Shown one piece after another: positions 4,194 through 26,896 of a DNA stretch of 36,588 nt. The first letter of the stretch is position 1. Each line of letters begins with the position of its first letter. The notes beneath the pieces were generated by a model. It worked only from the letters and a program-made list of their open reading frames with translations. It searched no databases and was not told the origin of the DNA. Origin of the DNA: Alphaproteobacteria bacterium (lineage in GTDB: Bacteria > Pseudomonadota > Alphaproteobacteria > Micavibrionales > UBA2020); assembly GCA_029266795.1 (NCBI GenBank), contig JAQSWE010000015.1, forward strand, positions 1 through 36,588. Direction: 5' to 3'. A program made the translations under genes and the position numbers.

Positions 4194-4727
4194 TCAGATA
4201 AAGTCGAGTGCGCAGAGATGCGCATAAAAGGCTTCGCGGATGCGCGCATCTTCATTGGGATACAGCCGCTGCAATTCGGCATAAACCCAGAGCAGCGTAC
4301 GATGCACGGATTGCACGGTTTCCGACTGCGCATCGAACCGCAATCCGCGCCGCAATCCGTCGATATAATCACGCTCCAGCGCGATAGCGTTGCGCAGCTG
4401 CTGGTGAACGGTGCGCAGTTTGTCGGGCGGCGACAGCGCATCGAATTTCGACAGGATGATGCCGTAATTGTCGGGGGCTTTATCGCGCTGGCGCAAGGCT
4501 TCCTGCGTTCCCACACGCTCGATCACTGCAAGGTCGGTGACGGCAAACATATCGGAAAGATAGCGTTTTTCCGCCTCGATCATGTCAGCCGAGGCGATGT
4601 CGAAGGTCCGCTGCTTTACATTGGTCAGCCGATACGCCTCGGCCAGATCCAGCTCCTGCCGCAACTCATCGCCAGCATAGGCGGCGGCGGACAACAGGCA
4701 GAACAGGGCGATCATCAGGGCTTTCAT
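4194..4727 (-). CDS. Secreted alpha-helical protein, no family recognised
   Basis: Start at MKALMIALFCLLSAAAYA (Sec signal peptide). 177 aa with GC3-rich codon usage like its neighbours. Confidence 0.6.
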   Translation of the reverse strand: MKALMIALFCLLSAAAYAGDELRQELDLAEAYRLTNVKQRTFDIASADMIEAEKRYLSDMFAVTDLAVIERVGTQEALRQRDKAPDNYGIILSKFDALSPPDKLRTVHQQLRNAIALERDYIDGLRRGLRFDAQSETVQSVHRTLLWVYAELQRLYPNEDARIREAFYAHLCALDFI

Positions 4728-4820
4728 GAATACCTCTGCCCTTATCCTATCCAAACAATCGGGTTGACGGAAGCGCAGGCACGGCTAGACTGCCGCCATT
4801 CAAGCACAAGGAGATTCCAG

Positions 4821-5045
4821 ATGGCCGACGTCACGATCAACCTGCATAACAAGGATGTGAAAGTCTCCGTGCCCGATGGCGGCGACCTGACAGAGAATTT
4901 CAACGAAGCCTCCGCCTTCGTGCGCAGCCTCGCTATGAACATGAAAATCCGCGACGTTGAAGCCGGCATCACCCCGCCCCGCGCGACCCATGAAGTCGTG
5001 AAGGAAAACGGTGAATGGCGCCTGAAACGCTTCCGCTTTTCCTGA
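4821..5045 (+). CDS. 74-aa hypothetical protein
   Basis: ATG at 4821 is preceded by AAGGAG (4808-4813). The product is MADVTINLHNKDVKVSVPDGGDL...GEWRLKRFRFS. The upstream part of track ORF 4218-5045 is antisense to the 4194-4727 gene. Confidence 0.6.
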   Translation: MADVTINLHNKDVKVSVPDGGDLTENFNEASAFVRSLAMNMKIRDVEAGITPPRATHEVVKENGEWRLKRFRFS

Positions 5046-5181: not shown

Positions 5182-5985
5182 ATGACGTCACTCCACCCCG
5201 ATACTTTCAACAAGAAAGCCGCCAAGCCCGCACAGCTGGATGCACCCGCCTACCAAGCCATTCTCGAAAAACTGCTCGCCCAAGGCGAAGGCTGGGGCAA
5301 GAACAAACAGGTCGGCGCTTACCTGCTGGAAAAGCTGGAATTCGAAACGATGACCACCTCCGGCAAGGTCGAGACGCGCAACAGCGTCGATTTCGAGAAA
5401 AAAATGTACATCGTGATGGATACCGACCAGTACCCGTCGGAATACTTACGCAACCTCGTCATTCAAGACATCACGAAAAAATGGGGCGGCAAGCTCATCA
5501 AGGAACGCGACCTGAGCCAGCCTGAATTCAGCGGCCCCGGCCTCTGGCTCATCAAAAAAGGCAGCTTCGAAGGCGATTACATGCCCGTTGCCGGCCAGAA
5601 AAACACCTATGATCCGGATCCTGCAGCCTATCGCGTGACGCTCGCTGTAAAAACGCCGGTGAATATTCCGGTCCAATGGACGGGCGGCTTTGTCGTCGAA
5701 ACCGACGGCGATATTGCTATCCGCCAGAAAGACATCCCTGCCCTTGCGGCCGCGCTGCAGTCGATCCGCAAAGGCGAAACCACCGCCGAAGAAGCGCTGT
5801 TCACGACCGATGCAAAATCGGGCGAGAAAGTCGCGAAGTTCGACATCTACGGCATGGAGCCGAAATTCCGCGAAACCAACTACGCCCCCGTGCCGATCTA
5901 TCCGGAAACGGAAGCAGCGATGAATGCTTTCAAGAAAGCCCCTGCTGCCAAGCCCGCCGCCAAATCCGGCCCGGCAAACGCATAA
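5182..5985 (+). CDS. Orphan 267-aa protein, tandem paralog 1
   Basis: GAGGA Shine-Dalgarno about 10 nt upstream. No signal peptide or TM segment. Alignable along its whole length with the next gene (LEKLLAxGxGxGK, YIVMD, GPGLW, KKxSFExDY, EPDPxAF, IPxQW, KDIPALAxAxQS, KFDxYGMxPKF). Confidence 0.75.
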   Translation: MTSLHPDTFNKKAAKPAQLDAPAYQAILEKLLAQGEGWGKNKQVGAYLLEKLEFETMTTSGKVETRNSVDFEKKMYIVMDTDQYPSEYLRNLVIQDITKKWGGKLIKERDLSQPEFSGPGLWLIKKGSFEGDYMPVAGQKNTYDPDPAAYRVTLAVKTPVNIPVQWTGGFVVETDGDIAIRQKDIPALAAALQSIRKGETTAEEALFTTDAKSGEKVAKFDIYGMEPKFRETNYAPVPIYPETEAAMNAFKKAPAAKPAAKSGPANA

Positions 5986-6074: not shown

Positions 6075-6100
6075 GTTTCAATTAATTTTATGTGGGGACA

Positions 6101-6862
6101 ATGGCAGGAAACGCCACAGTAGCATTTCAGGATAAAGCAGCGCCGCCGCCCGTGATGGCAGCGGGCGAATATATGGCTGCGCTTGAAAAACTGCTGGCGG
6201 AGGGGAAAGGCTTTGGCAAGACAGAGCCCGTTGCCGCCTATCTGCTCCGCGACCTGATGCTGCTTGATGAAACCAACAACGCACAGGCCGTGAAAATCCA
6301 GCAGCTCTACATCGTCATGGACATCAAGCAATGGCCGAATGAATACGGGCGTTCACTGGTGATGCAGGACATCGCCGTGCAGTACGCGAAACGTGTGGTC
6401 GGCGAAAACGATATCAACGCCGCCGATTTTAAAGGGCCCGGCTTGTGGACAGTCAAAAAATCCTCTTTCGAGGACGATTATCTCCGAAGCGCCGGCAACA
6501 ATGAATACGGCCGCCCCAGCAATATCTGGGAGCCAGATCCGCAAGCCTTCCGCCTTGCCATTTCCTTCAATAAGGCCGCCACCATCCCAACGCAATGGGG
6601 AACATGGACGATCGAGGCGGGCGGCACGATGGCTGTGCGCGAAAAAGATATCCCCGCCCTTGCCGAAGCCGTGCAATCGGTGCGCGATGGCCGCGCGACC
6701 GCCGAAACCGCGCTATACACGGTGGGCCAAGACGGCAACCCGCTTGCGAAGTTCGACGTCTATGGCATGGCGCCGAAATTTCTTGAAGCGAATTACAAGC
6801 CTGTCAGTTTAAGTGAAGCCACGCACAAAACGACGCGTACTTTCAAATCACCGAAGCGCTGA
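6101..6862 (+). CDS. Orphan 253-aa protein, tandem paralog 2
   Basis: ATG at 6101 is preferred over GTG at 6092 because of the GGGG Shine-Dalgarno at 6094-6097. Roughly 40% identical by eye to the 5182-5985 product. The stop TGA (6860-6862) directly abuts the stop of the convergent M50 gene. Confidence 0.75.
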   Translation: MAGNATVAFQDKAAPPPVMAAGEYMAALEKLLAEGKGFGKTEPVAAYLLRDLMLLDETNNAQAVKIQQLYIVMDIKQWPNEYGRSLVMQDIAVQYAKRVVGENDINAADFKGPGLWTVKKSSFEDDYLRSAGNNEYGRPSNIWEPDPQAFRLAISFNKAATIPTQWGTWTIEAGGTMAVREKDIPALAEAVQSVRDGRATAETALYTVGQDGNPLAKFDVYGMAPKFLEANYKPVSLSEATHKTTRTFKSPKR

Positions 6863-8995
6863 TTAGAAGCCGCTTTCCCGCATCACAAGCGACATGAAAC
6901 GCTGCGCCAGCAGGCTGGCATAGCTGATGGGGTCTGCCTCCAGCACCACCGTGCCGGGCGTCGTATAATCCGGCATCCGCGTATCGCCAGTCAGGCGGAA
7001 TTGCGCGGCATAGATGGGGTGACGGGCGAGCGGGCGGATTGTGCCGCTCTCGCGCGACCGCTCCGCCGGCAGTGCGCCGCCAAAGACCGATGACAGTTCC
7101 GGCCAGAAAATATCCGTTGTATCGGTGTCCTCGATCCGGCCGAGCTCCACCGCGACACGGCTAAATGGCGACAGTTCGGAATAGAACCATCCCTTGGCAT
7201 CTTTTTTCAGCCGTGCGGCATCCTGTTCTGAAACATAGCCGGACAGCATCATTTTCTCCGGCCCGATAATGACCGCCAGCTGCGTGCCGGGATGCAGCCA
7301 GATACCTTCATGAATATAGGGCTCGAGGTCGCGCACCGTGCCGTCAAAGGGCGCTGTCACGATCAGCCGCGCCTTCTGCACTTCGTGGCCTTCCAGCTGC
7401 TTGCGGGCATTCTCGATATCGGAGTCCAGCGTCGGACGGTTGCGCACTAGCTCCGCCGATGCCTGTTCGCGGTCGCGAATGCTAATGAGTGCCGCCAGTT
7501 TCAATCTTGCCTTGGCGATGTCGTTATCGAGCTTTGGCGACATCAACTGGAACAGCATGTCGCCTTTTTTCACCTGCCCGCGCTCGACCGCCATCACCCG
7601 CTCGACACGCGCAGCGGTCGGGGGATAGATGCGGACATAGTTGGAGGCGTGCAGGACGGCGGGCGCCTCCACGGTTGCCTGCGCGGGCATAAAGCAAAAC
7701 GCCGCCACAACAAAGGCCAGCAGCAGCAGAAATTTTCCGCGCACGGATGATAGGATCAGCTTGCCGTTGCGCCCCCATACATACAATTCCCGCCAGATCG
7801 GCAACAGGATAAAAAACACGATTTCGACGAGGAACAGGATCAGGCCGAGCGGCTTGAAGAACAGGAAATAGACGAGGAAGGCGATACCGATGAACAGAAA
7901 GAACCGGTAGACAATGGTCGCAAAACCGAAAATCACCAGCAGGTTGCGCCGTTCCTGCGCCAGCAATTCGGGCGGCCCGTCATCCCAGCCCCAGAGCCAG
8001 CTGCGCAGTTTCCATTTCGCAAAGGCGAAGGCGCGGTCCTGCAGGTTGTCGATGCCGACGAGGTCGGAAAACAGGTAATAGCCGTCGAATCGCATGAGCG
8101 GGTTCAGGTTGACGAGCAGGGACGCCACCAGCGACACGATTGCCACCATGAAGCAGATGCTTTGCAGCATGCCGGGCGGCAGCATATGCCAGAGCAGCAG
8201 CGCCACGGCGGCAATAGTCATTTCCGCCATCACGCCCGCCATGGAAATGAAGATGCGGTCGCGGCGGTCCATCATCTTCCACGCATTCGTGGTCTCCGCA
8301 TATAGCACCGGATACATCACCATCAGCGCAACGCCGATGGTGTGAACGGGAATGCCGTATTTGGTCGCCATATAGGCATGGCCCATTTCATGCGCGACCT
8401 TGACGAAAATCGTCGCGATCAGAAGGTAAAAGATGCCTTCAAGGTTAAAGTAACTCATGAAGGTATGCGCGACTTCGTCCCAGCGCTGCAGCGTAAGGAT
8501 TGCGCCATAGCCGAGCAGCAGCAGAACGCCTGTAAAGAACGCACGCGTGAACATGAAACTGACATAGGGATAGGTGCGCTTCAGGAATTTCTGGGGCTTG
8601 AACAGCGGCATGGCGATATACAGGTAGCCATGCATCGCCTTTTGCCACCAGGAATGTTCTTTTTTCGCGCGTTCTTTTTCAAGATATTCCAGCATGCCGG
8701 GATTGTCGGCATGGACCAGCTTATGCGTCAGGAGGAAATTGACGAGGAACTGGATATCCGCTTCTTCCGGCTCCAGCGTCGTTTCTTTTTGCACAAGCTC
8801 AATCAGCTCGTTGCCCGTACGTACACGGGTGAAGCGGGACAGGCACTCGAATTCCAGCCAGCCTATTTTATAGTATTTGTTGGCGGCGGGATCGTAGAGC
8901 GTCCATGTCGGCGCCCCTTCCTCCGCCGGCGCAGGGTTCAGCTGCAGGTCCTGCCGCAGCCTTGGAAGGTAGAGTTCCTGTGGCTGTTCCATCAT
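6863..8995 (-). CDS. Fusion protein: PqqD/RRE-like N-domain + M50 (site-2-protease type) zinc metalloprotease + C-terminal HlyD/MFP domain
   Basis: 710 aa. Residues ~25-95 (TWTLYDPAANKYYKIGWLEFECLSRF...ELIELVQKETTLEPEEADIQFLVNFLLTHKLV) look PqqD-like. The polytopic core carries HEMGH and NLNPLMRFDGYY, the M50 HExxH and NxxPxxxxDG motifs. The C-terminal ~280 aa carry lipoyl-like and coiled-coil MFP features (VKKGDMLFQL, ...RLIVTAPFDGTV). Confidence 0.8.
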   Translation of the reverse strand: MMEQPQELYLPRLRQDLQLNPAPAEEGAPTWTLYDPAANKYYKIGWLEFECLSRFTRVRTGNELIELVQKETTLEPEEADIQFLVNFLLTHKLVHADNPGMLEYLEKERAKKEHSWWQKAMHGYLYIAMPLFKPQKFLKRTYPYVSFMFTRAFFTGVLLLLGYGAILTLQRWDEVAHTFMSYFNLEGIFYLLIATIFVKVAHEMGHAYMATKYGIPVHTIGVALMVMYPVLYAETTNAWKMMDRRDRIFISMAGVMAEMTIAAVALLLWHMLPPGMLQSICFMVAIVSLVASLLVNLNPLMRFDGYYLFSDLVGIDNLQDRAFAFAKWKLRSWLWGWDDGPPELLAQERRNLLVIFGFATIVYRFFLFIGIAFLVYFLFFKPLGLILFLVEIVFFILLPIWRELYVWGRNGKLILSSVRGKFLLLLAFVVAAFCFMPAQATVEAPAVLHASNYVRIYPPTAARVERVMAVERGQVKKGDMLFQLMSPKLDNDIAKARLKLAALISIRDREQASAELVRNRPTLDSDIENARKQLEGHEVQKARLIVTAPFDGTVRDLEPYIHEGIWLHPGTQLAVIIGPEKMMLSGYVSEQDAARLKKDAKGWFYSELSPFSRVAVELGRIEDTDTTDIFWPELSSVFGGALPAERSRESGTIRPLARHPIYAAQFRLTGDTRMPDYTTPGTVVLEADPISYASLLAQRFMSLVMRESGF

Positions 8996-8999
8996 AGGA

Positions 9000-10409
9000 T
9001 CAAACGCCCAGCTTGCGGCGCAGCGCGATCAGCGGGCGGCGCATGACGTTGAACATCATAAACGACGTTTCACCGTAAACCTTTGCCGTGCCGGTCCAGC
9101 CGACGCGGGGCATGTTTTCCTTGTCGATGAACTGTGCGCGAATGCGGTAGGTCATCATGCCGTCGTTGTCGGGGCCGGGCTGATAAGAAACGGTTTCGAT
9201 CTGTGCCGCGCGGGAGCTTAAGGGGCTGACGTTCAGGAAGAAACTGGCCGGAATATCGGGATTGATATCGATCATCGCATCGACCGGCACGCGGATCAGC
9301 AATTCGGTGTCGCGCGGCTTGGTCAGCAGCATCACCTGTTCGCCCGTGCGCGCCGGGCGGCCGGTGAGGGTTTTCGCGTCGGGGAAGACGACGACGCCGT
9401 CTTCCTCCGCCTTGATTTCGGCGCGCGACAGCATGTCGGCGGCGAAACTTGCTTCGGATTCTTTCGCCGCGATCTGCGCGCGCAGGACGTTCAGCTCGTT
9501 GCGCTTTTTGGGATCGCTCAGGGCTTCACGCTCCGTTTTATCGAGCGCGACACGCACGGTATCAAGCTCGCGCTGCGCGAGTTCCAGCTGGTTGCTCAAC
9601 ACGGTCGAATCCATGATCAGCAGCGTGTCGCCTTTTTTCACGGCCTGGTTCGGTTCCACCGCCGATTTTTCGATGATGCCGTCGAACGGCACCGTCACGA
9701 CGCGCGGGCTGCGTGCCACCACTTCGGCAGGCGCGGTTGCCGTCATGCGCGCCGGAATAAACATCGCCGCCACCAGCAGGGCAAGGAAAATGGCCGTGCC
9801 GGATTTCGTGGGGCGCAGCAGCTTGGTCATCAGCGACTTGCCGCCGCCGCCCAGCTGCCGTACCGCATGTGCAAAACCATCACCAAGGTCTTCGAGGAAA
9901 GCGATATCTGCGTCCTGAAACGCCTCGTCGCGGTCGAGCCACAAGCCGCAGGAGGTTTTGCCCTTCGCGCCCTTCATGGTGACGAGCATCGCATGGGATG
10001 ACGCCCATTCCTGCCAGTCAGCGCGTTCGCGCTCCGGCGCGTCGGCCACCGATATTTTCCGGCAGCGCGCGTCATTCTCCGCCTGCGGCTGGTCGCCGAT
10101 TTTCAGCCATGCGGCGTCGTCCTGATTGCGCAGCTGATGCGCGATCACCTTGCCCAGCCATTGCGCATAGGGGCCGCCTTCATCCAGCTGCACAAGGCCA
10201 GAGGCCGCTTCCAGCGTGACGGAAGTGCCGTCCCAGCGCCAGAACACGCCGTGACGATAAGGCACAAGGTTGAAGGTCTGGTTGACCATCATGAAGCCGA
10301 GTTCGGCGAGCGTTTTTTTATGGCGGACGTTTTTATGCAGGGTCAGCAGGGTCAGCAGCCGCTGCATCCGCGGATCCATTTCTGGCGCACGCGGGGGCGT
10401 GCCGGTCAT
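9000..10409 (-). CDS. HlyD-family membrane fusion protein with a ~190-aa cytoplasmic GAF-like N-terminal domain
   Basis: 469 aa. The N-domain (LAELGFMMVNQTFNLVPYRHGVFWRWDG...LEAASGL...) is followed by one TM (AIFLALLVAAMFIPA). The MFP body follows (TVPFDGIIEK...VKKGDTLLIMD, coiled coil, ...GVVVF). The start overlaps the upstream stop in ATGA. Confidence 0.75.
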   Translation of the reverse strand: MTGTPPRAPEMDPRMQRLLTLLTLHKNVRHKKTLAELGFMMVNQTFNLVPYRHGVFWRWDGTSVTLEAASGLVQLDEGGPYAQWLGKVIAHQLRNQDDAAWLKIGDQPQAENDARCRKISVADAPERERADWQEWASSHAMLVTMKGAKGKTSCGLWLDRDEAFQDADIAFLEDLGDGFAHAVRQLGGGGKSLMTKLLRPTKSGTAIFLALLVAAMFIPARMTATAPAEVVARSPRVVTVPFDGIIEKSAVEPNQAVKKGDTLLIMDSTVLSNQLELAQRELDTVRVALDKTEREALSDPKKRNELNVLRAQIAAKESEASFAADMLSRAEIKAEEDGVVVFPDAKTLTGRPARTGEQVMLLTKPRDTELLIRVPVDAMIDINPDIPASFFLNVSPLSSRAAQIETVSYQPGPDNDGMMTYRIRAQFIDKENMPRVGWTGTAKVYGETSFMMFNVMRRPLIALRRKLGV

Positions 10410-11485
10410 GGCGTGACGCTGGAATCTGGCGGGCTGTCGACCATGAGGCCGAGGAAGCCGAAGCCGGGTTTCTTGAAGACCGCTTCGGGTGCGAAGCTGG
10501 CGCGGCCGCTCATGCCGGGCAGCAGCACTTCGGAATAATTGTCGAGCTCGGCTTCGACCTGCAAAGATTGGGACACGGGATCGACTTCGCCATGGATGCG
10601 CGCGACCTTGGCCGAATAATGGCGGTCGGTTTCGGCGACATAGACGTCGACCGGCGTGCCGATGTTCAGCCAGCGCAGCCAGATGGACGGGATGAGGAAC
10701 TGCGCCTGCAGCGGCTCGCGGGAGACGATTTCCATCAGTACGCGGCCTGTCTGCACGAATTCATACTGGCTGGCGGTTTTCTTGACGACGCGGCCGGCGA
10801 AGGGGGCGGTGATCTTGCACAGCGAAAGGCGGTTGCGCAGCTGTTCGATCTGGGCGACCGCCTGCGCATTGTTTTCCTGCGCCGTCACCACCTCGATCTT
10901 GGAAACCACGTCGAGCGCCTTCAATTCGTTATAGGCGTCCAGCTGCGTCTTCGAGAGGCGCTGGCGGGACTGCACTTCGCGTAGGCGCGCGGTCTCCCCG
11001 CCGCAATCGAATTCGGCCAGCACATCGCCCTTGTTGAACAGGTCGCCGTCGCGGAAGGGCATCTTGGTGACGTGCGCATCGAGCGTGCTCGAGATAACGG
11101 CGATATTCTGCGCCACCAGCACAGCCTGCACCTGATGTTCGCCGGATTGTGTCGCGGTGGATGTAGAAGATGCCTGCATGAAATCGGGCGGCGGCTCTTT
11201 CGGGCCCTGCACTTGCGCGGCTTTTTCCTGTCCCATGCGGTCGGGGTCGCCGACGCCGGAGGCAGGTTCGATGGAATTAAGGTCGAGCGCGCGGACGAAA
11301 TCCATGCCCGTGAAGGCACCGCCGAAAGCTGTCTGGTTAAGCGGCGCGCGCGCAAGGCTGACGAAGAGGGAGCCCGCGATGACGGTCGTGAAGACGGCAG
11401 CGGTCAGCACGCGGCGCAAGGCAGCGCCGCCGCGCTTGCTGCGTTTCTCAGTGGTCGGGAAATATGTTTCGACCCAGTCCGTCAA
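10406..11485 (-). CDS. HlyD-family membrane fusion protein (periplasmic adaptor)
   Basis: 359 aa with an N-terminal TM (VLTAAVFTTVIAGSLFVSLA), a lipoyl motif (FNKGDVLAEFD), a coiled coil, and ITAPFAGRVV. Confidence 0.8.
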   Translation of the reverse strand: MTDWVETYFPTTEKRSKRGGAALRRVLTAAVFTTVIAGSLFVSLARAPLNQTAFGGAFTGMDFVRALDLNSIEPASGVGDPDRMGQEKAAQVQGPKEPPPDFMQASSTSTATQSGEHQVQAVLVAQNIAVISSTLDAHVTKMPFRDGDLFNKGDVLAEFDCGGETARLREVQSRQRLSKTQLDAYNELKALDVVSKIEVVTAQENNAQAVAQIEQLRNRLSLCKITAPFAGRVVKKTASQYEFVQTGRVLMEIVSREPLQAQFLIPSIWLRWLNIGTPVDVYVAETDRHYSAKVARIHGEVDPVSQSLQVEAELDNYSEVLLPGMSGRASFAPEAVFKKPGFGFLGLMVDSPPDSSVTP

Positions 11486-11490
11486 ACCGC

Positions 11491-13002
11491 TTATCCCCCC
11501 TTCCCTGTCAAAACGTCGTTTTCCAGCGCCTGCAGGTTGCGGCGCACGGTGGAAGAAATTTCCGGCAGCGCGACACCGTCGCCGTCGCCACTCCAGATAT
11601 CGATGCCGAGCGAGGAGACAAGCTGCGCATACGCTTCCTGCGCATCGCCGAAGGCGACCATACGGTTCGCGCCGGTGATCGCCGCGTCAATCTCCGCCAC
11701 CACTTTCTGCGGGGTCGCCATCATGCCCGTTTTCGCAAAGCCCGCCGCGCGGCGCGCCAGCTGGCGGCTGTTTTCGTCGACTTCGGTTGCGGCGGCATAG
11801 AATTCTTTGAGGTATTCAAATCTCAGCCGCGCGAGTGTCACTTGCGTCATGACCGCCGCGACCAGCGCAGCCCGGCGTTTTTCGGTCAGCGCCTGATCGG
11901 CCTTCGCCCGCTGGTAGCGCGCGGGCAGCGTCAGCAGTTTCGTGATGCTCTGCGTCAGGCTGAAGGTCCAGTCGACCCAGTCATTTTCGGCAAGGAAGCT
12001 GTTCGCGTCATGCTTCGCGCCCAGCACGGCGGATGCACCGGGGAAGGTCGAGAAGATTTCGAGTTTCACGTTGCGCGCGGAGATCGACTTGTTCAGGAAC
12101 TGCTCGTGCATTTCAGGGCGGTGCATCAAGGCGATGGAATGCAGCGCGTCGTCGGAGCGGCTGAGGCGCGGCAGGCTGCGGCCTTCCAGCCAGTCGGTGT
12201 CGGAGATGTCGAGGCGCAGCGGCGCGCCCGGCGGCAGCGCGATCAGCGCCTTCAAACCCGCTTCCGCCAGCAGCAGCCTATCCTTCAGCGTCATGAGGGC
12301 GGCGCGTTTATCGAGCAGCGTGCCTTTCAGCGTCTTCGCATCGCCAAACGGAATGACGCCCGCCTTCACGGCGGCATCGAGTTTCTTGGTTTCGGTATTT
12401 GTCGCAGCAATCAAATCGCGGATCTGCGGCTGTAAACGTTGCGCAGCCGCCGCGCGCCAGTAGGCGGCATAGACTGCCGTCACGACGTCTTCAAATACTT
12501 TGCGGCGGCGTTCCATGGAAACTTTTTCGCGGTCGGATGCGCCGCGCGCGCGCGCAATCGCAAGGCCGGCATCCAGCAGGTTCCAGCTGGCATCGAGGCT
12601 CGCCGTGTTGCGGTATTGGTCTGTCGAGATCGAGGGCTCCAGCGACTGCACGCCGGTCTGCAGAGAGCGCGAGGAAGATCCGCCCGGATTGTTGCGGCCG
12701 ATGCGGCTCGCGGTCAGCGATGCCGTGGGCAGCGCGTCATAGCCCGCAAGCGCGGATTCTTTGCGCGCGACATAGTTTTCCATCTGCGCGACTTTGGCGT
12801 CGAGATTATATTTGATGCCGCGCGCGATCGCCATTTCAAGCGTGAGGACTTCGCCCTGCACTTCCGGCGGATAGGCGACGCGCATGTCTTCCGCAATCGT
12901 GCGGCGCATTTCGGATGGCTCCAGCGCCTGATTACTCGAGCAGGCAGCCAGCAGCGCAATAAGCGGCAATGCGTAAGCTACGCATTTGGTGCGGTTATAC
13001 AT
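11491..13002 (-). CDS. TolC-family outer-membrane efflux lipoprotein
   Basis: 503 aa with lipobox LIALLAACSS and two repeated alpha/beta halves typical of outer-membrane factors. It is first in the four-gene operon, 5 nt from the next gene. Confidence 0.8.
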   Translation of the reverse strand: MYNRTKCVAYALPLIALLAACSSNQALEPSEMRRTIAEDMRVAYPPEVQGEVLTLEMAIARGIKYNLDAKVAQMENYVARKESALAGYDALPTASLTASRIGRNNPGGSSSRSLQTGVQSLEPSISTDQYRNTASLDASWNLLDAGLAIARARGASDREKVSMERRRKVFEDVVTAVYAAYWRAAAAQRLQPQIRDLIAATNTETKKLDAAVKAGVIPFGDAKTLKGTLLDKRAALMTLKDRLLLAEAGLKALIALPPGAPLRLDISDTDWLEGRSLPRLSRSDDALHSIALMHRPEMHEQFLNKSISARNVKLEIFSTFPGASAVLGAKHDANSFLAENDWVDWTFSLTQSITKLLTLPARYQRAKADQALTEKRRAALVAAVMTQVTLARLRFEYLKEFYAAATEVDENSRQLARRAAGFAKTGMMATPQKVVAEIDAAITGANRMVAFGDAQEAYAQLVSSLGIDIWSGDGDGVALPEISSTVRRNLQALENDVLTGKGG

Positions 13003-13012
13003 TCTTTAAAAT

Positions 13013-13035
13013 ATTCTTCTATGAACAAGAAGAAT
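13013..13035. promoter_or_regulatory. 8-bp inverted repeat immediately upstream of the TolC-family gene start
   Basis: attcttct (13013-13020) / agaagaat (13028-13035) with a 7-nt loop, 11-33 nt upstream of the ATG at 13002. It could be an operator or an RBS-occluding hairpin. Confidence 0.3.
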
Positions 13036-13225
13036 TCTCCCCAATTTTCCCCACCTGAATCCTAACCTAAATTTCTGTTTCATAACAATATTATTTAACA
13101 AAGGCTTAAGGGCGATTTCCATAGAGAGTCAAACGGATTCAAAAATGATTCAGTATGGAAAGTTGCGGGTTGATTTCGGAATCCCTGCCGTTAAACTGCC
13201 ACACATATCAAAAAGGAATTTAACG

Positions 13226-14456: not shown

Positions 14457-15380
14457 TTGACTACTCCGCTTTCGGAGAACTCGATCCCGTCCACTTCCCC
14501 TTCCGCCCATCCCGTATCGGGATTCCTGCGCAGCGCCGGCAAGGCCATCTACAATCTTTGCGAAACCGCCGTGCATACCGTGCGCAAGGGCTACGACAAT
14601 TTCCACCTGCGCATCGCGGAAGGCAATTACCGCATTCAGCCGAAATCGCTCTGGACCCTTATCACCGGGCAGGGTAGCAAGCCCGAAATCGATGTCGCCG
14701 TAACCAAAGTCGGCGGCGCGATGATGGATACCGGCCGTTCATTCGGCAAGCGCATGATGTGGGCTTCCGCCATCGCGCTTGTTTCCATGCAGGCAATGGT
14801 CTGGGTCGCGGGCGGCATCGCGCTTGCGGGCGCCGGCCTCTTCGTCCTTGAATACATGCAGTCGCGTCGCGCAGGCCGCGAAGTGATCCGCGAGGTCAAT
14901 TTCGCGGGCCAGCAGATCGAAGGCACGCGTGCCGATCTGTATCACCTGCACAACGCGCAGGAAAAAATCATGAACCTCGGCGGCACGTTCGCACAGGCAT
15001 CGATGGAATCCACATCAGAAACGATTGAACGCATCATCAACAGCGTCGCCGACAATGCCAGCCGCGTGAAAGTCATCGACCCCGGCCGCTATAACGCAGG
15101 CTGCGAAGGCTATGAGTTCTCCGAACCCGGCATCAAGCTGGTGAAGAACCGCCCTGCACCGCCTGCGATCTTCCATGCGCAAACCACCTCGCCCGCTACC
15201 ACTTATGCGCTGGCCGATATGTCGGTGAAATCTACCTTTGACGCCGCAGCTGCATACACGCCGGAAGAAGTCGCCAAACGCTTCCTCGCGCTCGAAGAAG
15301 CCCTGCCTGCTGACGCGATGGCGAAGGTGAATGAAGCGCGCGCACAGAAGGCAAGAACGGCGCACATACGCGCGGCATAA
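14457..15380 (+). CDS. Hypothetical membrane protein (central double hydrophobic span)
   Basis: 307 aa. TTG start with a GAGG Shine-Dalgarno 7 nt upstream. Hydrophobic region MMWASAIALVSMQAMVWVAGGIALAGAGLFVL. No family recognised. Confidence 0.55.
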   Translation: MTTPLSENSIPSTSPSAHPVSGFLRSAGKAIYNLCETAVHTVRKGYDNFHLRIAEGNYRIQPKSLWTLITGQGSKPEIDVAVTKVGGAMMDTGRSFGKRMMWASAIALVSMQAMVWVAGGIALAGAGLFVLEYMQSRRAGREVIREVNFAGQQIEGTRADLYHLHNAQEKIMNLGGTFAQASMESTSETIERIINSVADNASRVKVIDPGRYNAGCEGYEFSEPGIKLVKNRPAPPAIFHAQTTSPATTYALADMSVKSTFDAAAAYTPEEVAKRFLALEEALPADAMAKVNEARAQKARTAHIRAA

Positions 15381-17534: not shown

Positions 17535-18585
17535 ATGACCAAAAAACCCGTCATTATCTCCCTCCTCGTCATCGCCGCGATCGCCGCAGGTGGGTGGTAC
17601 TGGTATTCACATAAATCAGCCGGTGGCGACGAGAAAAAGCCCAAAGGCCCGCAGGCCGTCGTGACCGCCGTGGTCGAGGCGCGCGATATCACCTCCACCA
17701 TCAACGCCGTCGGCTCGCTCATCGCGGATTCAGGAAGTGCTGTTCGAAGAAGGCAAGCCCGTCAAAAAGGGCGACACCCTGATCAAGATGGATTCCAGCC
17801 TCATCGAAACCGAATACGCGAAAGCCAAGGCCGCGCTCGATGTCGCCGCCGCCACCTTCCAGCGTGACGACAAATTGAAATCGGGCGGCTTCGTCGCGGG
17901 CCAGCAATGGGATGTCTCCCGCGCCGATTACCGCGCGGCGCAGGCGGCCGTATCGAACGCCGAAATCCTCGTCACCAAAGCCGTCATCAAGGCGCCCTTC
18001 GACGGCGTTGCGGGCCTGCGCAATTTCTCTCCCGGTGATTACGCAACCGCAGGGCAGGAACTCACCAACGTCGTATCCCTCGACCCGCTGAAACTGGAAT
18101 TCACCGTGCCGGAGAAAGACTACGCCACCGTCAAGCAGGACCAGAAAATCAATTTCGTGGTCGATGCCTTCCCCGACCGGAAATTCACCGGCGATATTTA
18201 CGCGATCGACCCGCGCATCAATCCCGAAAACCGCAACTTCACCGTCAAGGCGACCATCCCGAACGGCGACGGCGCCCTGCGCCCCGGCATGTATGCCCGC
18301 ATCAGCATCGAAACACAGACGCGCCAAGCCGTGCCGATGCTGCCCGAACAAGCCATCATGCCGCAGGGTACTGACAACTATGTCTACACCATTAACGGCA
18401 ACAAGGCGCAGCGCAAGAAGATCACGATTGGCGAGCGTCAAAACGGTTCTGTCGAAGTGCGCGAAGGCCTGAAAGCAGGCGATAAGGTCATCACCGCCGG
18501 CCTGATGAAGCTGAAAGACGGCAGCGAGGTTGCCGAACAAAAGCCCGACGCCGCCGCCGCCCCTGCCCCCGCCAAAGCGGAGTAA
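17535..18585 (+). pseudogene. RND efflux periplasmic adaptor (MFP), split by an internal deletion plus frameshift near 17727-17737
   Basis: Frame A (17535 onward) gives the TM anchor and VVEARDITSTINAVGSLIAD, then nonsense. Frame B (track ORF 17737-18585) gives (R)IQEVLFEEGKPVKKGDTLIKMD and the full MFP body. The conserved segment normally between them (about 11 aa, consensus-like ESVxIRPEVAG) is absent. Confidence 0.65.
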
Positions 18586-18591
18586 TAACGG

Positions 18592-21500
18592 ATGACACTT
18601 CCCGAACTTTGCATCAAGCGGCCGGTTTTCGCGACAGTGATGAGCCTCTTCCTCATCCTGCTCGGCCTTGTCTCGTACTCGCGCCTTTCCGTCCGCGAAT
18701 ACCCGAACATCGACGAGCCCATCGTCACCGTTTCGACCAGCTATCTTGGCGCGAGCGCGGAGATCATGGAATCGCAAGTGACAAAAGTGCTGGAGGATTC
18801 ACTCGCCGGTATCGAGGGTATCGAGATCATGTCATCGATCAGCCGGTCGGAAAGCAGCCAGATCACCCTGCGCTTCGTCATCAGTCGCGATCCCGATGCC
18901 GCCGCCAACGACGTGCGCGACCGCGTATCGCGCGTGCGCTCGCAACTGCCCGACGAAGTCGACGACCCCACCGTCGCCAAGGTCGAGGCCGATGCCCAGC
19001 CCATCATCTACCTCGCCTTCACCAGCGACCGCCTCTCCGCCATGGAGATCACCGATTACGCCGACCGCTATGTGCAGGACCGGCTGCAAAACGTGGAGGG
19101 CGTGGCGCAGGCAAACATCATCGGCGAGCGCCGCAAATCGATGCGTCTCTGGCTCGACCCCTTGCGCCTGGCTGCCGCGAAACTGACACCCGCCGATGTC
19201 GAAACCGCGCTGCGCAGCCAGAACGTCGAAATCCCGGCGGGCCGCATCGAAAGCAGCCAGCGCGAATTCACCGTCCTGTCCGAAACCGACCTGCGCAGCG
19301 CCGAACAGTTCGAAAGCCTGATCCTGAAGCGCGACGGCACCACTTTCGTCCGCCTGCGCGATGTGGGCCGTGCCGAAGTCGCGGCGGAGGATGAACGCCG
19401 CGTCGTGCGCTTCAACGGCAAGAACGCGGTGGCGCTCGGCATCGTCAAGCAGGCAACGTCGAACCCGCTGACCGTGTCGCAGGGCATCCAGAAGCTGCTG
19501 CCGGACATCCGCTCATCGCTTCCCGAAGGCATGAACATCGAAATCGCGCATGATACTTCCGTCTTCATCGACCGCTCGATCAAGGCTGTCTACCAGACGA
19601 TTGTCGAGGCCGTCGTCCTTGTCCTGATCGTGATTTTCTTCTTCCTGCGCTCTTTCCGCTCCACCTTTATCCCGCTCGTCACGATTCCCATTTCGCTGAT
19701 CGGCGTCTGTTTTGCGATGTATGTGATGGGCTATACCATCAACACGCTCACGCTGCTCGCCTTCGTCCTTGCGATCGGCCTTGTGGTCGATGACGCGATC
19801 GTGGTGCTGGAAAATATCTTCCGCCATATCGAGGAAGGGAAATCTCCGCGCGAAGCATCGCTGATCGGCGGCAAGGAAATCGCCTTCGCCGTCATCGCCA
19901 TGACCATCACGCTCGCCGCCGTCTATGCGCCCATCGCGCTCTCCACAGGCAAGACCGGCAAGCTGTTCGTCGAATTCGCGCTGACGCTCGCGGGCGCGGT
20001 CATCATTTCCGGCTTCGTCGCGCTGACGCTCACCCCCATGCTGTGCTCCAAAATGCTGTCGGGGCATAAGGAAAAACATGGCCGCATTTACAACGCCATC
20101 GAAACATTCCTCGAAAAACTCACTTCGGGCTATGGCCGCCTGCTCGGCCTTGCGCTATCTTGGCGTTTCGTCATCGTCATCATTGGGCTTGCGGTTGCGG
20201 GCGCGAACGTCGCGCTGCTGATGCTCATCAAGTCCGAGCTTGCCCCCATCGAGGACCGCGGCACCATCGTCGTGCGCGCGAGCGCCCCCGAAGGCTCCAC
20301 CATCAATTACATGACCGAGTGGATGAAGAAGCTGGAGCCCATCGCGGCATCCGTGCCGGAAATCGACCGCTATTTCGTCGTGGCCGGCAGCCCGACCGTC
20401 TCCGACGGCATCGCTTTCCTGCGCATGAAACCCTGGGAAGAACGGGAGCGCAAGCAGCAGGACATCACCAAGGAACTGACGCCTAGAATCCTGCAGGCGA
20501 CCGCCGGCATCAGCGCCTTCCCGCGCAACCCGCCGTCGCTCGGCGGCTCCGCCCGCTCCAGCCCCGTGCAGATGGTCATCCTGACCAGCGGCACCTATCA
20601 GGACCTCGACAAGGCCGTAACGCAGCTGGTGCAGGATTTCGCAACCTATCCCGGCATGGTCGATGTCGATACCAACCTGCGCATGAACAAGCCGCAGCTG
20701 AACATCAAGCTCGACCGCGACAAGACGGCGGCGGTGGACGCCGATATCGACGACGCGGGCCGCACGCTCGAAACCCTGCTCGGCGGGCGTCAGGTGACAC
20801 GCTACAAGGATAACGGCGAGCAATACGACGTCATCGTGCAAGTGAGCGACGACCTGCGCACCCGCCCGCAAGACCTGACCGATATCTATGTTCGCAACCA
20901 GAAAAACGAGATGATCAAGCTCTCCAACCTCGTGACCATCGAGGAAACGGTTGCCCCGCGCGAGCTCAACCACTTCAACCAGCTGCGCGCGGCCGATATC
21001 ACCGCCAGCCTTGCCCCCGGCTATGCGCTGGGCGAAGTGCTGACCTATGCCGACAAGCGCGCCAAGGAGTTGCTGCCGCCCGGCTTTATCGTCGATTACA
21101 ACGGTGAATCGCGCGAGTTCAAGAGTTCGGGCGCCAGTATCGTGCTGACCTTCGCGCTCGCCATCGCTTTCATCTATCTCGTCCTCTCGGCGCAGTTTGA
21201 AAGCTTCGTCGGGCCGTTCATCATCATGCTCTCCGTTCCGCTCTCCATCGCAGGCGCGCTGCTGGCGCTATACCTGACGGGCGGCACGCTCAACATCTAC
21301 AGCCAGATCGGGTTGGTGACGCTCATCGGCCTGATCACCAAGCACGGCATCCTGATCGTCGAATTCGCCAATCAGGCACGGGAGAGCAACGACAAGCTGG
21401 GCCGCCGCGAGGCCGTGACGCAGGCATCATTGATGCGCCTGCGCCCCATCCTGATGACAACCGGCGCGATGGTGCTGGGCGCGCTGCCCCTCGCCCTTGC

Positions 21501-21642
21501 CACGGGCGCGGGCGCCGAAAGCCGTCAGCAGATTGGCTGGGTCATCATCGGCGGCATGGGCATCGGCACGTTCTTTACCCTGTTCATCGTGCCGGTGGTT
21601 TACAGCCTGCTGTCGCGCAAGGACATGCCCAAACATGGTTAA
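18592..21642 (+). CDS. RND (HAE1-type, AcrB/MexB-like) efflux permease
   Basis: 1016 aa with N-terminal KRPVFATVMSLFLILLGL and a 12-TM, two-large-loop architecture. VVDDAIVVLENI and other RND signatures are present. Confidence 0.9.
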   Translation: MTLPELCIKRPVFATVMSLFLILLGLVSYSRLSVREYPNIDEPIVTVSTSYLGASAEIMESQVTKVLEDSLAGIEGIEIMSSISRSESSQITLRFVISRDPDAAANDVRDRVSRVRSQLPDEVDDPTVAKVEADAQPIIYLAFTSDRLSAMEITDYADRYVQDRLQNVEGVAQANIIGERRKSMRLWLDPLRLAAAKLTPADVETALRSQNVEIPAGRIESSQREFTVLSETDLRSAEQFESLILKRDGTTFVRLRDVGRAEVAAEDERRVVRFNGKNAVALGIVKQATSNPLTVSQGIQKLLPDIRSSLPEGMNIEIAHDTSVFIDRSIKAVYQTIVEAVVLVLIVIFFFLRSFRSTFIPLVTIPISLIGVCFAMYVMGYTINTLTLLAFVLAIGLVVDDAIVVLENIFRHIEEGKSPREASLIGGKEIAFAVIAMTITLAAVYAPIALSTGKTGKLFVEFALTLAGAVIISGFVALTLTPMLCSKMLSGHKEKHGRIYNAIETFLEKLTSGYGRLLGLALSWRFVIVIIGLAVAGANVALLMLIKSELAPIEDRGTIVVRASAPEGSTINYMTEWMKKLEPIAASVPEIDRYFVVAGSPTVSDGIAFLRMKPWEERERKQQDITKELTPRILQATAGISAFPRNPPSLGGSARSSPVQMVILTSGTYQDLDKAVTQLVQDFATYPGMVDVDTNLRMNKPQLNIKLDRDKTAAVDADIDDAGRTLETLLGGRQVTRYKDNGEQYDVIVQVSDDLRTRPQDLTDIYVRNQKNEMIKLSNLVTIEETVAPRELNHFNQLRAADITASLAPGYALGEVLTYADKRAKELLPPGFIVDYNGESREFKSSGASIVLTFALAIAFIYLVLSAQFESFVGPFIIMLSVPLSIAGALLALYLTGGTLNIYSQIGLVTLIGLITKHGILIVEFANQARESNDKLGRREAVTQASLMRLRPILMTTGAMVLGALPLALATGAGAESRQQIGWVIIGGMGIGTFFTLFIVPVVYSLLSRKDMPKHG

Positions 21643-26731: not shown

Positions 26732-26896
26732 GCGAAACACCTGCTGTATAAGGATTTTTGCTTCCTCAATCATACGCCTGAGGCATGGACAATTAGTTAA
26801 ACCAAGCAGGGACAATTGCCAACCGAAAACGGAAGCCAAAATCATCATAAAATCCGGTACTTAAGGGGTAAAATCTATGCTGCGGTGCAGCGTCCG

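What the first reader, a model, noticed from the sequence alone, without database searches (positions are those of the whole stretch)
6863..13002. TolC / MFP / sensor-MFP / [RRE-like + M50 protease + MFP] operon with no ABC, RND or MFS energiser
Seen: four minus-strand genes are joined by a 5-nt gap, an ATGA overlap (10406-10409) and a 4-nt gap. They encode a lipoprotein TolC-family outer-membrane factor, a standard MFP, an MFP with a long cytoplasmic N-domain, and a 710-aa protein. That last protein has polytopic M50 protease motifs (HEMGH, NLNPLMRFDG), preceded by a ~70-aa segment resembling PqqD/RRE peptide-binding domains and followed by a ~280-aa MFP-like periplasmic domain. Established: characterised tripartite envelope-spanning exporters couple the MFP and TolC to an ABC, RND or MFS inner-membrane pump. 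M50 proteases of the YydH type process a RiPP-like peptide in B. subtilis yydFGHIJ, but an ABC exporter is encoded there. Inference: here the only polytopic inner-membrane component is a protease physically fused to an adaptor. This suggests leader recognition, intramembrane cleavage and hand-off into an MFP/TolC conduit. Three distinct MFP modules in one operon is itself unusual. I know of no experimental characterisation of this architecture.
Basis: partly seen in the sequence, partly recalled or inferred. Interest (0 to 1): 0.8.

Follow-up and report, generated by a model that had tools for sequence, protein, structure and literature searches.

The report
Protease-adaptor export cassette for giant proteins
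The four genes are a real and widespread but uncharacterised envelope-spanning machine (outer-membrane channel, two adaptors, and a peptide-binding domain fused to a membrane protease and a third adaptor) that in other bacteria sits beside giant surface proteins carrying a conserved N-terminal tag, so it is probably a new route for exporting them, though this window holds no such cargo gene.

Summary
Four tightly joined minus-strand genes encode a TolC-family lipoprotein, a plain adaptor (MFP), a GAF-domain MFP, and a 710-aa fusion of RRE (PqqD-like), M50 site-2 protease and MFP. The RRE and GAF folds were confirmed by modelling and Foldseek.

The cassette keeps the same gene order from Alphaproteobacteria to Nitrospira, Scalindua and E. 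coli plasmids. It has no linked ABC, RND or MFS pump.

No small precursor ORF of 30 aa or more is conserved nearby. About 70-85% of loci instead carry an adjacent co-oriented giant repeat protein of 1,000 to more than 6,500 aa. Its N-terminus is a basic stretch followed by L-A-L-E-[PSK]-R-[IL]-[ML]-F-D-[GA]-A, which matches NCBIfam's "LEPR-XLL" domain. A search starting from that motif recovers the cassette.

A distant sister system adds a dedicated SecA-like ATPase and a DUF3467 protein, which argues for protein translocation.

My best reading is leader-guided processing and TolC-dependent export of giant LEPR-XLL proteins. The energy source is unresolved. This window and its closest relatives lack the cargo gene, yet the cassette is under purifying selection. 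I found no published characterisation.

The parts
11491..13002 (-). TolC-family outer-membrane factor, 503 aa, lipoprotein (lipobox LLAAC at 12931-12963). First gene of the operon.
   Evidence: Pfam OEP 1.9e-21, 77 bits, two repeats. Sequence. Orthologue occupies the first position in 54 of 66 loci.
10406..11485 (-). MFP1: single-TM periplasmic adaptor, 359 aa, TTG start. TM at 11354-11410, adaptor domains at 10493-11155. The alignment to the RND_mfp model stops at position 244 of 322.
   Evidence: TIGR01730 RND_mfp 124 bits (cutoff 94.9), HlyD_3 and HlyD_D23. TM. The same 359-aa gene was called in a relative.
9000..10409 (-). MFP2: cytoplasmic GAF domain (9837-10373), TM (9738-9794) and HlyD-type adaptor (9066-9710); 469 aa.
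   Evidence: AF2 pLDDT 90. Foldseek gave 281 PDB hits at E<=1e-3 and the 50 best listed are GAF-containing structures, best 1.5e-7. HlyD_3 34 bits. The sister-system orthologues pass Pfam GAF gathering scores.
6863..8995 (-). RRE-M50-MFP fusion, 710 aa. Cytoplasmic RRE/PqqD-like domain at 8726-8944. Polytopic site-2-protease core at 7673-8563, with HEMGH at 8378-8392 and NLNPLMRFDG at 8081-8110. Periplasmic adaptor domain at 6866-7672.
   Evidence: The topology, about 7 TM helices plus a re-entrant loop with N-in and C-out, is inferred from hydropathy and from my knowledge of S2P structures.
13003..13144 (.). Intergenic region between the operon and a divergent Rieske oxygenase gene; the presumed promoter region.
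   Evidence: Position only. The sigma-70 consensus scan found nothing.

Best explanation
The operon encodes an envelope-spanning apparatus that processes and exports giant surface or secreted repeat proteins made with an N-terminal 'LEPR-XLL'-type leader.

Proposed steps. (1) Inferred: the cytoplasmic RRE domain of the 710-aa protein binds the leader, which is a basic stretch followed by L-A-L-E-[PSK]-R-[IL]-[ML]-F-D-[GA]-A-A. In this window's clade the variant is LEKRL[LM]LDA[SA]. (2) Inferred: the fused M50 intramembrane metalloprotease cleaves the leader at the inner membrane; its catalytic residues are invariant. (3) Inferred: the chain passes into a duct formed by the three adaptor modules (MFP1, GAF-MFP2 and the C-terminal domain of the protease) docked on the TolC-family lipoprotein. 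(4) Inferred: the cytoplasmic GAF domain of MFP2 gates or regulates the process in response to an unknown ligand.

What is shown is the domain and fold architecture, gene-order conservation, two-way genomic linkage with LEPR-XLL giant genes, absence of a linked ABC/RND/MFS pump, and purifying selection. The energy source is unknown. Candidates are housekeeping SecA in trans (a sister system carries its own SecA-like ATPase), co-translational pushing, folding of the repeats outside the cell, or proton-motive force. In this window the cassette is intact but its cargo gene must lie elsewhere in the genome.
For: Architecture.

Gene order: TolC-MFP1-MFP2-M50MFP occurs in 54 of 66 loci with at least 4.5 kb of upstream flank (MFP2 in 62, MFP1 in 59) across Pseudomonadota, Nitrospirota, Planctomycetota, Bdellovibrionota and Desulfobacterota.

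Giant neighbours: the commonest flanking family, in 49 of 83 loci, is a giant co-oriented repeat protein lying directly downstream of the protease gene or directly upstream of TolC. It is present in 42 of 58 loci with at least 2 kb on both sides, and about 7 more have other giant or LEPR-motif ORFs. In some loci TolC lies beyond the giant gene, so the giant gene sits inside the cassette.

Motif: found in 33 of 83 loci and in 0 of 83 reversed-sequence controls. It matches NCBIfam NF012209 LEPR-XLL. Consensus.

Reciprocal scan: starting from the motif in metagenomes, 8 of 11 fully visible genes have cassette parts within 3 kb.

E. coli: on an IncF plasmid a 4,459-aa Ig-like protein (N-terminus ...FALESRQLFDGAALAE) plus the four genes lie between IS5-like and IS1 elements with no ABC gene listed.

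Precedent: the daptide protease MpaP is an RRE fused N-terminally to a site-2 protease and removes a leader with the motif ELExMEAP (bioRxiv 10.1101/2023.03.08.531785). Its NCBIfam model hits residues 33-398 at 2e-44.

Sister operons: a giant gene whose product starts with LEPR[LV]LL[SN]AD in 3 of the 4, then a DUF3467 gene (annotated in 3 of the 4), GAF-MFP, PqqD-M50-HlyD and a SecA-like ATPase. A further short MFP is present in three and TolC in one.

Selection: dN/dS 0.09-0.14.
Against: All of the evidence is genomic or structural inference. No secretion, binding or cleavage was measured.

This window and its closest relatives (87-92% identical) have no LEPR-type gene within reach.

No motor is encoded in the window-type cassette, and moving thousands of residues without ATP has no precedent. 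A site-2 protease is not known to act as a translocon.

Foldseek E-values for the RRE match are modest (0.016, although probability is 1.0 and all of the top nine hits are RREs).

A Vibrio LEPR-XLL giant protein described in the literature also has C-terminal RTX and serralysin-type domains, so some LEPR proteins may use a classical T1SS.

The motif regex fixed four positions, so only the flanking conservation counts as independent evidence.
Confidence: 0.6

Rival explanations
1. One reading: the cassette recognises, cleaves and exports a small RiPP-like or bacteriocin-like peptide, as YydH or MpaP do, and passes it directly into the MFP/TolC duct.
For: RRE-M50 architecture shared with the daptide and YydH/LiaK leader peptidases. 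The window lineage has no giant gene nearby, so a small unannotated peptide cannot be excluded there.
Against: No conserved small ORF family of 30 aa or more flanks the cassette in 83 loci; the small clusters found are antisense shadows of giant genes. No RiPP-modifying enzymes recur in a Pfam census of 110 flanking proteins. The giant LEPR genes are the conserved partner.
Confidence: 0.1
2. The giant proteins cross the inner membrane by another route, such as a classical ABC T1SS encoded elsewhere or Sec. The cassette only anchors or releases their N-terminus, as a regulated tether-and-release device analogous in logic to LapG/LapD control of LapA, with the GAF domain as the sensor.
For: There is no motor in the cassette. 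A GAF sensor is fused to an adaptor. One published LEPR-XLL protein has C-terminal RTX domains. The leader is followed by an Ala-rich stretch.
Against: Giant neighbours of the cassette lack GGxGxD RTX repeats: 0-1 per protein in 21 examined. ABC genes are almost never nearby. In the E. coli plasmid region the only genes listed between the IS5-like and IS1 elements are the giant gene and the four cassette genes. Three adaptors and a TolC would be superfluous for proteolysis alone. The sister system couples the same parts to a SecA-like translocation ATPase.
Confidence: 0.15
3. A conventional type I secretion or efflux system whose ABC, RND or MFS partner is simply encoded elsewhere; the protease fusion is an accessory.
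For: An RND + MFP pair without its own outer-membrane gene lies 4.7 kb away in the window (17737-21642), and one lies near the cassette in L026.
Against: RND was seen near the cassette in only 2 loci of the output I could read (output partly cut). ABC_tran occurs in 3 of 110 flanking proteins and no pump family recurs. MFP1 matches only positions 9-244 of the 322-position RND_mfp model. The LEPR signal is N-terminal, unlike T1SS signals.
Confidence: 0.08
4. A regulated-intramembrane-proteolysis signalling device, which is the canonical job of site-2 proteases, or a small-molecule efflux system unrelated to the neighbouring giant genes.
For: M50 proteases usually cleave anti-sigma factors. GAF domains are sensors.
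Against: No sigma or anti-sigma pair is conserved nearby. The two-way linkage with LEPR genes and the TolC and adaptor content are not explained.
Confidence: 0.05

Closest known systems
Type I secretion systems for giant adhesins (LapEBC/LapA, SiiCDF/SiiE, HlyBD-TolC)
   Same: A TolC-family outer-membrane factor and HlyD-type adaptors are encoded next to a giant repetitive Ig/cadherin-like protein, with one-step export logic.
   Different: No ABC transporter. The signal is N-terminal (LEPR-type) rather than C-terminal. The giants examined have no RTX repeats. There are three adaptor modules instead of one. The inner-membrane hub is a site-2 protease with an RRE domain.
Peptidase-containing ABC transporters (PCATs, e.g. 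CvaB/CvaA/TolC, ComA)
   Same: A leader-specific protease is fused to the inner-membrane component, which works with an adaptor and TolC; the leader is removed during export. This comparison rests on my own knowledge.
   Different: PCATs have a C39 cysteine protease and ABC domains with a double-glycine leader on small peptides. Here there is an RRE plus an M50 metalloprotease, no nucleotide-binding domain, and cargo of thousands of residues.
RRE-fused site-2 proteases of RiPP pathways (daptide MpaP, NF041824; YydH/LiaK, NF058609)
   Same: An N-terminal RRE is fused to an intramembrane M50 protease that removes a leader. The NCBIfam daptide model hits at 2e-44 over the RRE and protease. Leaders share an L-[DE]-P...M flavour (ELExMEAP against LEPRxM); this is a resemblance only.
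   Different: The score of 152 bits is far below the equivalog cutoff of 300. The RiPP proteases have no adaptor domain, no TolC and no GAF-MFP. They occur in Gram-positive hosts, act on small peptides, and have ABC exporters in their clusters.
Sister system found here: giant LEPR-XLL protein, DUF3467 (in 3 of 4), GAF-MFP, PqqD-M50-HlyD and a SecA-like ATPase, with a short MFP in three and TolC in one (Rhodobacterales and Hyphomicrobiales plasmids)
   Same: Homologous GAF-MFP and RRE-M50-MFP proteins (27% identity, E 7e-50, collinear), and giant cargo with an LEPR motif.
   Different: It carries a dedicated truncated SecA paralogue (SecA_DEAD 1e-97 to 1e-104, SecA_PP_bind, P-loop_SecA) and a DUF3467 protein. 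SecA-like genes are absent from the window and from all 163 window-type and LEPR-scan loci.
Accessory Sec (SecA2/SecY2) export of giant serine-rich adhesins
   Same: The logic of a dedicated pathway for one giant adhesin with an unusual N-terminal signal. This is relevant mainly to the sister variant and rests on my own knowledge.
   Different: No SecY2 or Asp proteins. The envelope is Gram-negative with a TolC duct. The window-type cassette has no SecA paralogue.

Membership tests
Type I secretion system | ABC transporter as the inner-membrane energiser, encoded with the adaptor | tested here: not met
   No ABC gene in the operon. Walker A + LSGGQ ORFs are rare and distant in 83 loci. ABC_tran occurs in 3 of 110 flanking proteins. 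None is listed in the IS-bounded E. coli region.
Type I secretion system | HlyD-type adaptor and TolC-family outer-membrane factor | tested here: met
   OEP 77 bits; HlyD_3 and HlyD_D23 in three proteins.
Type I secretion system | C-terminal uncleaved secretion signal, usually with RTX repeats | tested here: not met
   21 giant neighbours have 0-1 GGxGxD motifs each. The conserved motif is N-terminal. C-terminal signals as such cannot be scored with these tools.
Tripartite RND/MFS efflux pump | RND or MFS transporter encoded with the adaptor | tested here: not met
   None in the operon. RND was seen near the cassette in 2 loci only (output partly cut). No pump family recurs in the flank census.
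M50 site-2 protease (Peptidase_M50, PF02163) | HExxH in a TM helix plus the downstream NxxPxxxxDG zinc-ligand motif | tested here: met
   HEMGH at 202-206 and NLNPLMRFDG at 296-305, invariant in 15 homologues. The Pfam score of 23.3 is below the gathering score of 27.2 for the window protein, but the E. coli homologue scores 34.7 and passes.
RRE / PqqD-like peptide-binding domain | Winged-helix fold of three beta-strands followed by three helices | tested here: met
   AF2 model pLDDT 87 with strands at 18-25, 28-35 and 40-44 and helices at 46-53, 61-71 and 78-90. Foldseek top nine hits are TbiB1 with leader, CteB, lasso B1 with leader and TglHI; probability 0.63-1.0 and target TM-score up to 0.69.
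RRE / PqqD-like peptide-binding domain | Sequence match to PqqD (PF05402) | tested here: inconclusive
   No hit for the window domain or 38 homologues even at E<=10, and no PDB sequence hit. Collinear 27%-identical relatives pass PF05402 (24.1 and 28.7 bits against a gathering score of 23.4), and PGAP names them 'PqqD family'.
RRE / PqqD-like peptide-binding domain | Binds a leader peptide | not testable with these tools
   No multimer prediction or binding assay was available.
Daptide protease MpaP (NF041824 equivalog) | Score above the equivalog cutoff, in a daptide gene cluster (mpaA/B/C/D/M) | tested here: not met
   152 bits against a cutoff of 300. No daptide biosynthetic genes occur nearby.
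GAF domain (MFP2 N-terminus) | GAF fold | tested here: met
   AF2 pLDDT 90. Foldseek gave 281 hits at E<=1e-3 and the 50 best listed are GAF-containing structures. Pfam matches are only marginal for window-type proteins but pass the gathering score in the sister system.
LEPR-XLL cargo (NF012209) associated with the cassette | An adjacent gene for a protein with the N-terminal LEPR motif | tested here: not met
   For the window itself there is no motif in any frame, and a leader HMM finds nothing N-terminal. It is met in most other loci.

The most novel reading that the evidence does not exclude
This is a previously unrecognised type of Gram-negative protein secretion system. An N-terminal leader (LEPR-XLL) on giant adhesin-like proteins is read by a RiPP-style RRE domain and cut by a fused site-2 protease. 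That protease forms the inner-membrane hub of a hetero-oligomeric three-adaptor/TolC duct, and the chain is exported N-terminus first without an ABC transporter. Export may be co-translational or driven by SecA; sister systems carry their own SecA-like motor.
Probability: 0.4. Interest if true: 0.95.

Novelty: new variant of a known kind. Interest (0 to 1): 0.85.

Why it matters
If the reading is right, thousands of bacterial lineages use an undescribed, ABC-independent route to put their largest proteins on or outside the cell. Those lineages include Nitrospira nitrifiers, Azospirillum and Rhizobium plant associates, Cupriavidus, predatory Micavibrio- and Bdellovibrio-like bacteria, and E. 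coli, Citrobacter and Hafnia plasmids.

It would extend the RRE leader-recognition principle from small RiPPs to protein secretion. It would add a fourth kind of inner-membrane partner for TolC-type ducts. It would explain the orphan 'LEPR-XLL' N-terminal domain. It would also raise a sharp energetics question: how are 5,000-10,000 residues moved?

The IS-bounded five-gene region on E. coli plasmids makes these questions directly testable.

Tried and rejected
1. par2 and par3 (5182-5985, 6092-6862) as cargo. They abut the protease gene and carry an 'LEKLLA' stretch near the N-terminus. However, the family is restricted to Micavibrio-like bacteria and occurs as tandem pairs far from any cassette. 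I rejected them as chance neighbours. ORF 4218-5045 is not a paralogue.

2. The 1,603-aa ORF 22037-26848 as a giant cargo. It is NAD-glutamate dehydrogenase.

3. A leader HMM against all window frames. The only hit (E 0.026) is an internal FDAAAAYT at residue 264 of ORF 14457-15380 and is not a leader.

4. Sequence-level PqqD detection (Pfam at E<=10, PDB profile search). Nothing was found.

I redid it with database homologues.

I redid it with 10 sequences.

7. The promoter and terminator scan was uninformative.

8. Ten literature searches found no description of the system. An 'M50' match in the Chem Rev tripartite-pump review was residue M507.

9. A 634-aa AAA ATPase downstream in a five-locus subgroup is not general and was not pursued.

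Full report
**1. The observation**

The window has four co-directional minus-strand ORFs at 11491-13002 (503 aa), 10406-11485 (359 aa, TTG start), 9000-10409 (469 aa) and 6863-8995 (710 aa). Read on the coding strand, the junctions are TAA-GCGGT-TTG, ATGA and TGA-TCCT-ATG.

- Pfam gives OEP for the first protein. It gives HlyD_3 and HlyD_D23 for the other three.
- The first protein has a lipobox (LLAAC).
- NCBIfam RND_mfp passes its cutoff for the second protein.
- The 710-aa protein carries HEMGH (202-206) and NLNPLMRFDG (296-305). Both are invariant in a 15-sequence alignment reaching down to 40% identity.
- Its Pfam Peptidase_M50 score (23.3 bits) is just under the gathering score. The E. 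coli homologue passes at 34.7 bits.
- Hydropathy places one TM helix in each plain adaptor. In the fusion it places a polytopic core between a cytoplasmic N-domain and a periplasmic C-terminal adaptor domain.

**2. The two unusual cytoplasmic domains**

The N-terminal ~118 residues of the fusion were modelled with a 39-sequence alignment.

- The model has pLDDT 87 and three strands followed by three helices.
- The nine best Foldseek matches in the PDB are all RiPP recognition elements: TbiB1 with its leader, CteB, lasso-peptide B1 with its leader, and TglHI.
- Sequence methods alone do not see PqqD.
- NCBIfam's daptide-protease model aligns across residues 33-398 at 2e-44. That protease is published as an RRE fused N-terminally to an intramembrane site-2 protease.
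- A collinear 27%-identical relative (E 7e-50) passes the Pfam PqqD gathering score over the equivalent residues.

The first ~200 residues of the third protein fold as a GAF domain. The model has pLDDT 90, and Foldseek gave 281 hits at E<=1e-3, with GAF-containing structures filling the 50 best listed.

**3. Distribution and conservation**

- The fusion has more than 1,200 database relatives in the word-indexed search.
- In the exhaustive search with the RRE and protease part, it has 2,808 50%-identity clusters at E<=1e-30. Almost all of the 150 best hits are 690-750 aa long, so the adaptor fusion is the norm among the closest relatives.
- A scan of one genome per GTDB species found at least 413 loci. 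They come from Alpha-, Beta-, Gamma- and Zetaproteobacteria, Nitrospira (including Ca. N. defluvii), Scalindua, Bdellovibrio-like bacteria and Desulfobulbaceae.
- Of 66 loci with at least 4.5 kb upstream, 62 have the GAF-MFP, 59 have MFP1 and 54 have TolC, all in the window's order.
- Against a relative that is 87% identical, dN/dS is 0.09-0.14 for three of the genes.

**4. No pump**

- ORFs with Walker A plus LSGGQ motifs are rare, small and distant.
- In a Pfam census of 110 proteins flanking about 40 cassettes, the commonest family was ABC_tran, in only three. No RND or MFS family recurred.
- The window does have an AcrB-type pump with its own adaptor at 17737-21642. Such a pair showed up near the cassette in only two of the loci I could read (output partly cut).

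**5. What is conserved next to the cassette**

I clustered all flanking ORFs of 30 aa or more.

- No conserved small ORF emerged.
- One dominant family emerged, in 49 of 83 loci. These are giant repeat proteins with cadherin, Big_9 and tandem-95 type repeats. They are co-oriented and lie directly downstream of the protease gene or directly upstream of TolC.
- With at least 2 kb visible on both sides, 42 of 58 loci have one. About seven more have other giant or motif-bearing ORFs.
- In some loci TolC lies on the far side of the giant gene.

The giants begin with a basic stretch and then a conserved motif, L-A-L-E-[PSK]-R-[IL]-[ML]-F-D-[GA]-A-A-A-A-T. The residues flanking the four positions I fixed in the regex are also conserved.

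- The motif occurs in 33 of 83 loci and in none of 83 reversed-sequence controls.
- It is what NCBIfam calls the LEPR-XLL domain (NF012209).
- The giants examined lack RTX repeats.
- Relatives closest to the window's protease (40-55% identity: L003, L005, L026, L086-L088) all use the variant LEKR[LM][LM]LDA[SAT].

**6. Reciprocal test**

I scanned metagenomes for LEPR[IM][ML]FDG.

- The scan gave 131 confirmed sites.
- In the 80 loci fetched, the motif lies 3-147 residues from the start of the open frame.
- In most loci it is followed by hundreds to thousands of residues, more than 3,300 where the locus allows it.
- Of 11 genes fully visible with both flanks, 8 have cassette components within 3 kb.

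**7. Annotated examples**

In Azospirillum brasilense the order is an Ig-like giant, then TolC, an adaptor, a second adaptor and the fusion. All carry generic RefSeq names.

On an E. coli IncF plasmid the layout is as follows.

- A 4,459-aa Ig-like protein starts MTTIKNRRLRPRAHRFALESRQLFDGAALAE.
- The four cassette genes follow it.
- The five genes lie between an IS5-like and an IS1 element.
- No ABC gene is listed.

Of 5,426 complete E. coli genomes, 24 carry the protease-adaptor gene. This looks like a compact, possibly mobile region. It suggests that the five genes plus host housekeeping functions are sufficient.

**8. A sister system with a motor**

More distant plasmid-borne relatives occur in Pontibrevibacter, Methylosinus, Alisedimentitalea and Mesorhizobium.

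- Each encodes a giant protein of about 8,000-10,600 aa.
- PGAP names one of them 'LEPR-XLL domain-containing protein'.
- The N-termini of three read ALEPRLLLSAD, TLEPRVLLNAD and PMEPRVLLSAD.
- Three of the four then have a DUF3467 protein.
- All four have a long HlyD-type adaptor. The two I scanned pass the Pfam GAF gathering score.
- All four have a 713-726-aa PqqD-M50-HlyD-type fusion.
- All four have a 638-661-aa SecA-like ATPase. The two I scanned hit SecA_DEAD at 1e-97 to 1e-104, SecA_PP_bind and P-loop_SecA. The other two are annotated as SecA or as a DEAD/DEAH helicase.
- A further short adaptor is present in three and TolC in one.

No SecA-like gene occurs in the window or in any of the 163 window-type and LEPR-scan loci. 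A dedicated preprotein-translocation motor in the sister system is the strongest indirect evidence that this protein family moves polypeptides. It also makes housekeeping SecA a candidate motor in trans for the window-type cassette.

**9. Interpretation**

The best-supported model is a dedicated processing and export apparatus for giant LEPR-XLL proteins.

- The RRE binds the N-terminal leader.
- The fused metalloprotease cleaves it at the membrane.
- The three adaptor modules and TolC form the duct.
- The GAF domain regulates the process.

Only the architecture and the genomic linkage are shown. Binding, cleavage, direction of threading and energetics are inferred. I put 0.6 on this model overall.

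The rivals are:
- tether-and-release of a protein exported by another route (0.15);
- a conventional system with its pump encoded elsewhere (0.08);
- signalling or efflux unrelated to the giant genes (0.05).

**10. The window itself**

The cassette is intact and under purifying selection. However, the window and its nearest relatives have no LEPR-type gene in any frame.

Two paralogous genes of a Micavibrio-type family lie convergent to the protease gene instead. That family is not linked to the cassette elsewhere. The cargo is presumably encoded elsewhere in the genome. I predict it starts with a basic stretch followed by LEKRL[LM]LDA.

**11. Novelty**

Ten full-text searches found no description of the fusion, the cassette or the function of LEPR-XLL. 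RefSeq names for these genes are generic and inconsistent.

I file it as a new variant of the TolC/adaptor exporter kind, with a new inner-membrane partner and a new class of signal. It may deserve recognition as a separate secretion-system type.

Noticed in passing
window 5182-5985 and 6092-6862 (+): Two tandem paralogous genes (267 and 256 aa) have no Pfam match. The second one's stop codon directly abuts the stop codon of the protease-adaptor gene. The family has 66 members, is restricted to Micavibrio-like Alphaproteobacteria, and usually occurs as tandem pairs.
   Followed up: yes
window 17737-21642 (+): An AcrB-type RND pump (1,016 aa) with its own adaptor has no adjacent outer-membrane factor and lies 4.7 kb from the cassette's TolC gene. 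A similar pair lies next to the cassette in L026. TolC might be shared between them; I did not test this.
   Followed up: partly
L172, L173, L174, L176 (plasmids of Methylosinus, Pontibrevibacter, Alisedimentitalea, Mesorhizobium): A sister operon encodes a giant protein (LEPR motif at the N-terminus in three of the four), a GAF-MFP, a PqqD-M50-HlyD fusion and a truncated SecA paralogue. DUF3467 is present in three, a short MFP in three and TolC in one. RefSeq variously names the SecA-like gene 'DEAD/DEAH box helicase', 'prepilin peptidase' or 'SecA'.
   Followed up: partly
L170/L171 (E. coli MS 115-1 plasmid NZ_CP146666.1, 123597-143348): A five-gene region (4,459-aa LEPR-leader Ig-like protein plus the cassette) lies between an IS5-like and an IS1 element on IncF plasmids. 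Identical copies occur in Citrobacter and Hafnia plasmids, and the protease-adaptor gene is in 24 of 5,426 complete E. coli genomes.
   Followed up: partly
L010, L020, L022, L033, L048, downstream of the protease gene: A Rhizobiaceae-like subgroup has three conserved extra genes: two of unknown function (about 360-390 aa) and a 634-aa AAA (PF00004) ATPase. The ATPase could be a motor specific to this subgroup.
   Followed up: partly
L008, L012, L035 (Nitrospira giant proteins, C-termini): The giant LEPR proteins of Nitrospira end in a conserved hydrophobic segment (G..L..G...W..R.G.LL....P.WR.FDP). It looks like a C-terminal membrane anchor, which would fit N-terminus-first export with the tail retained.
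   Followed up: no
L078, L091, L098, L111, L157, between the protease gene and the giant gene: A 1.4-1.7 kb insert encodes a protein that looks like a phage tail-collar/MdpB-type protein (my reading of the sequence, not tested). In some loci a GNAT-like ORF is also present. In Nitrospira loci L008 and L063 the same gap holds ORFs that look like toxin-antitoxin pairs.
   Followed up: no
window 22037-26848 (-): A 1,603-aa NAD-specific glutamate dehydrogenase with a full domain set. It is unrelated to the finding.
   Followed up: yes
L059 5553-5984 and L090 8880-9260: DUF3467 homologues also occur next to a window-type cassette (Nitrospiraceae) and next to a short LEPR-motif ORF. This hints that the small protein belongs to the wider system.
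   Followed up: no
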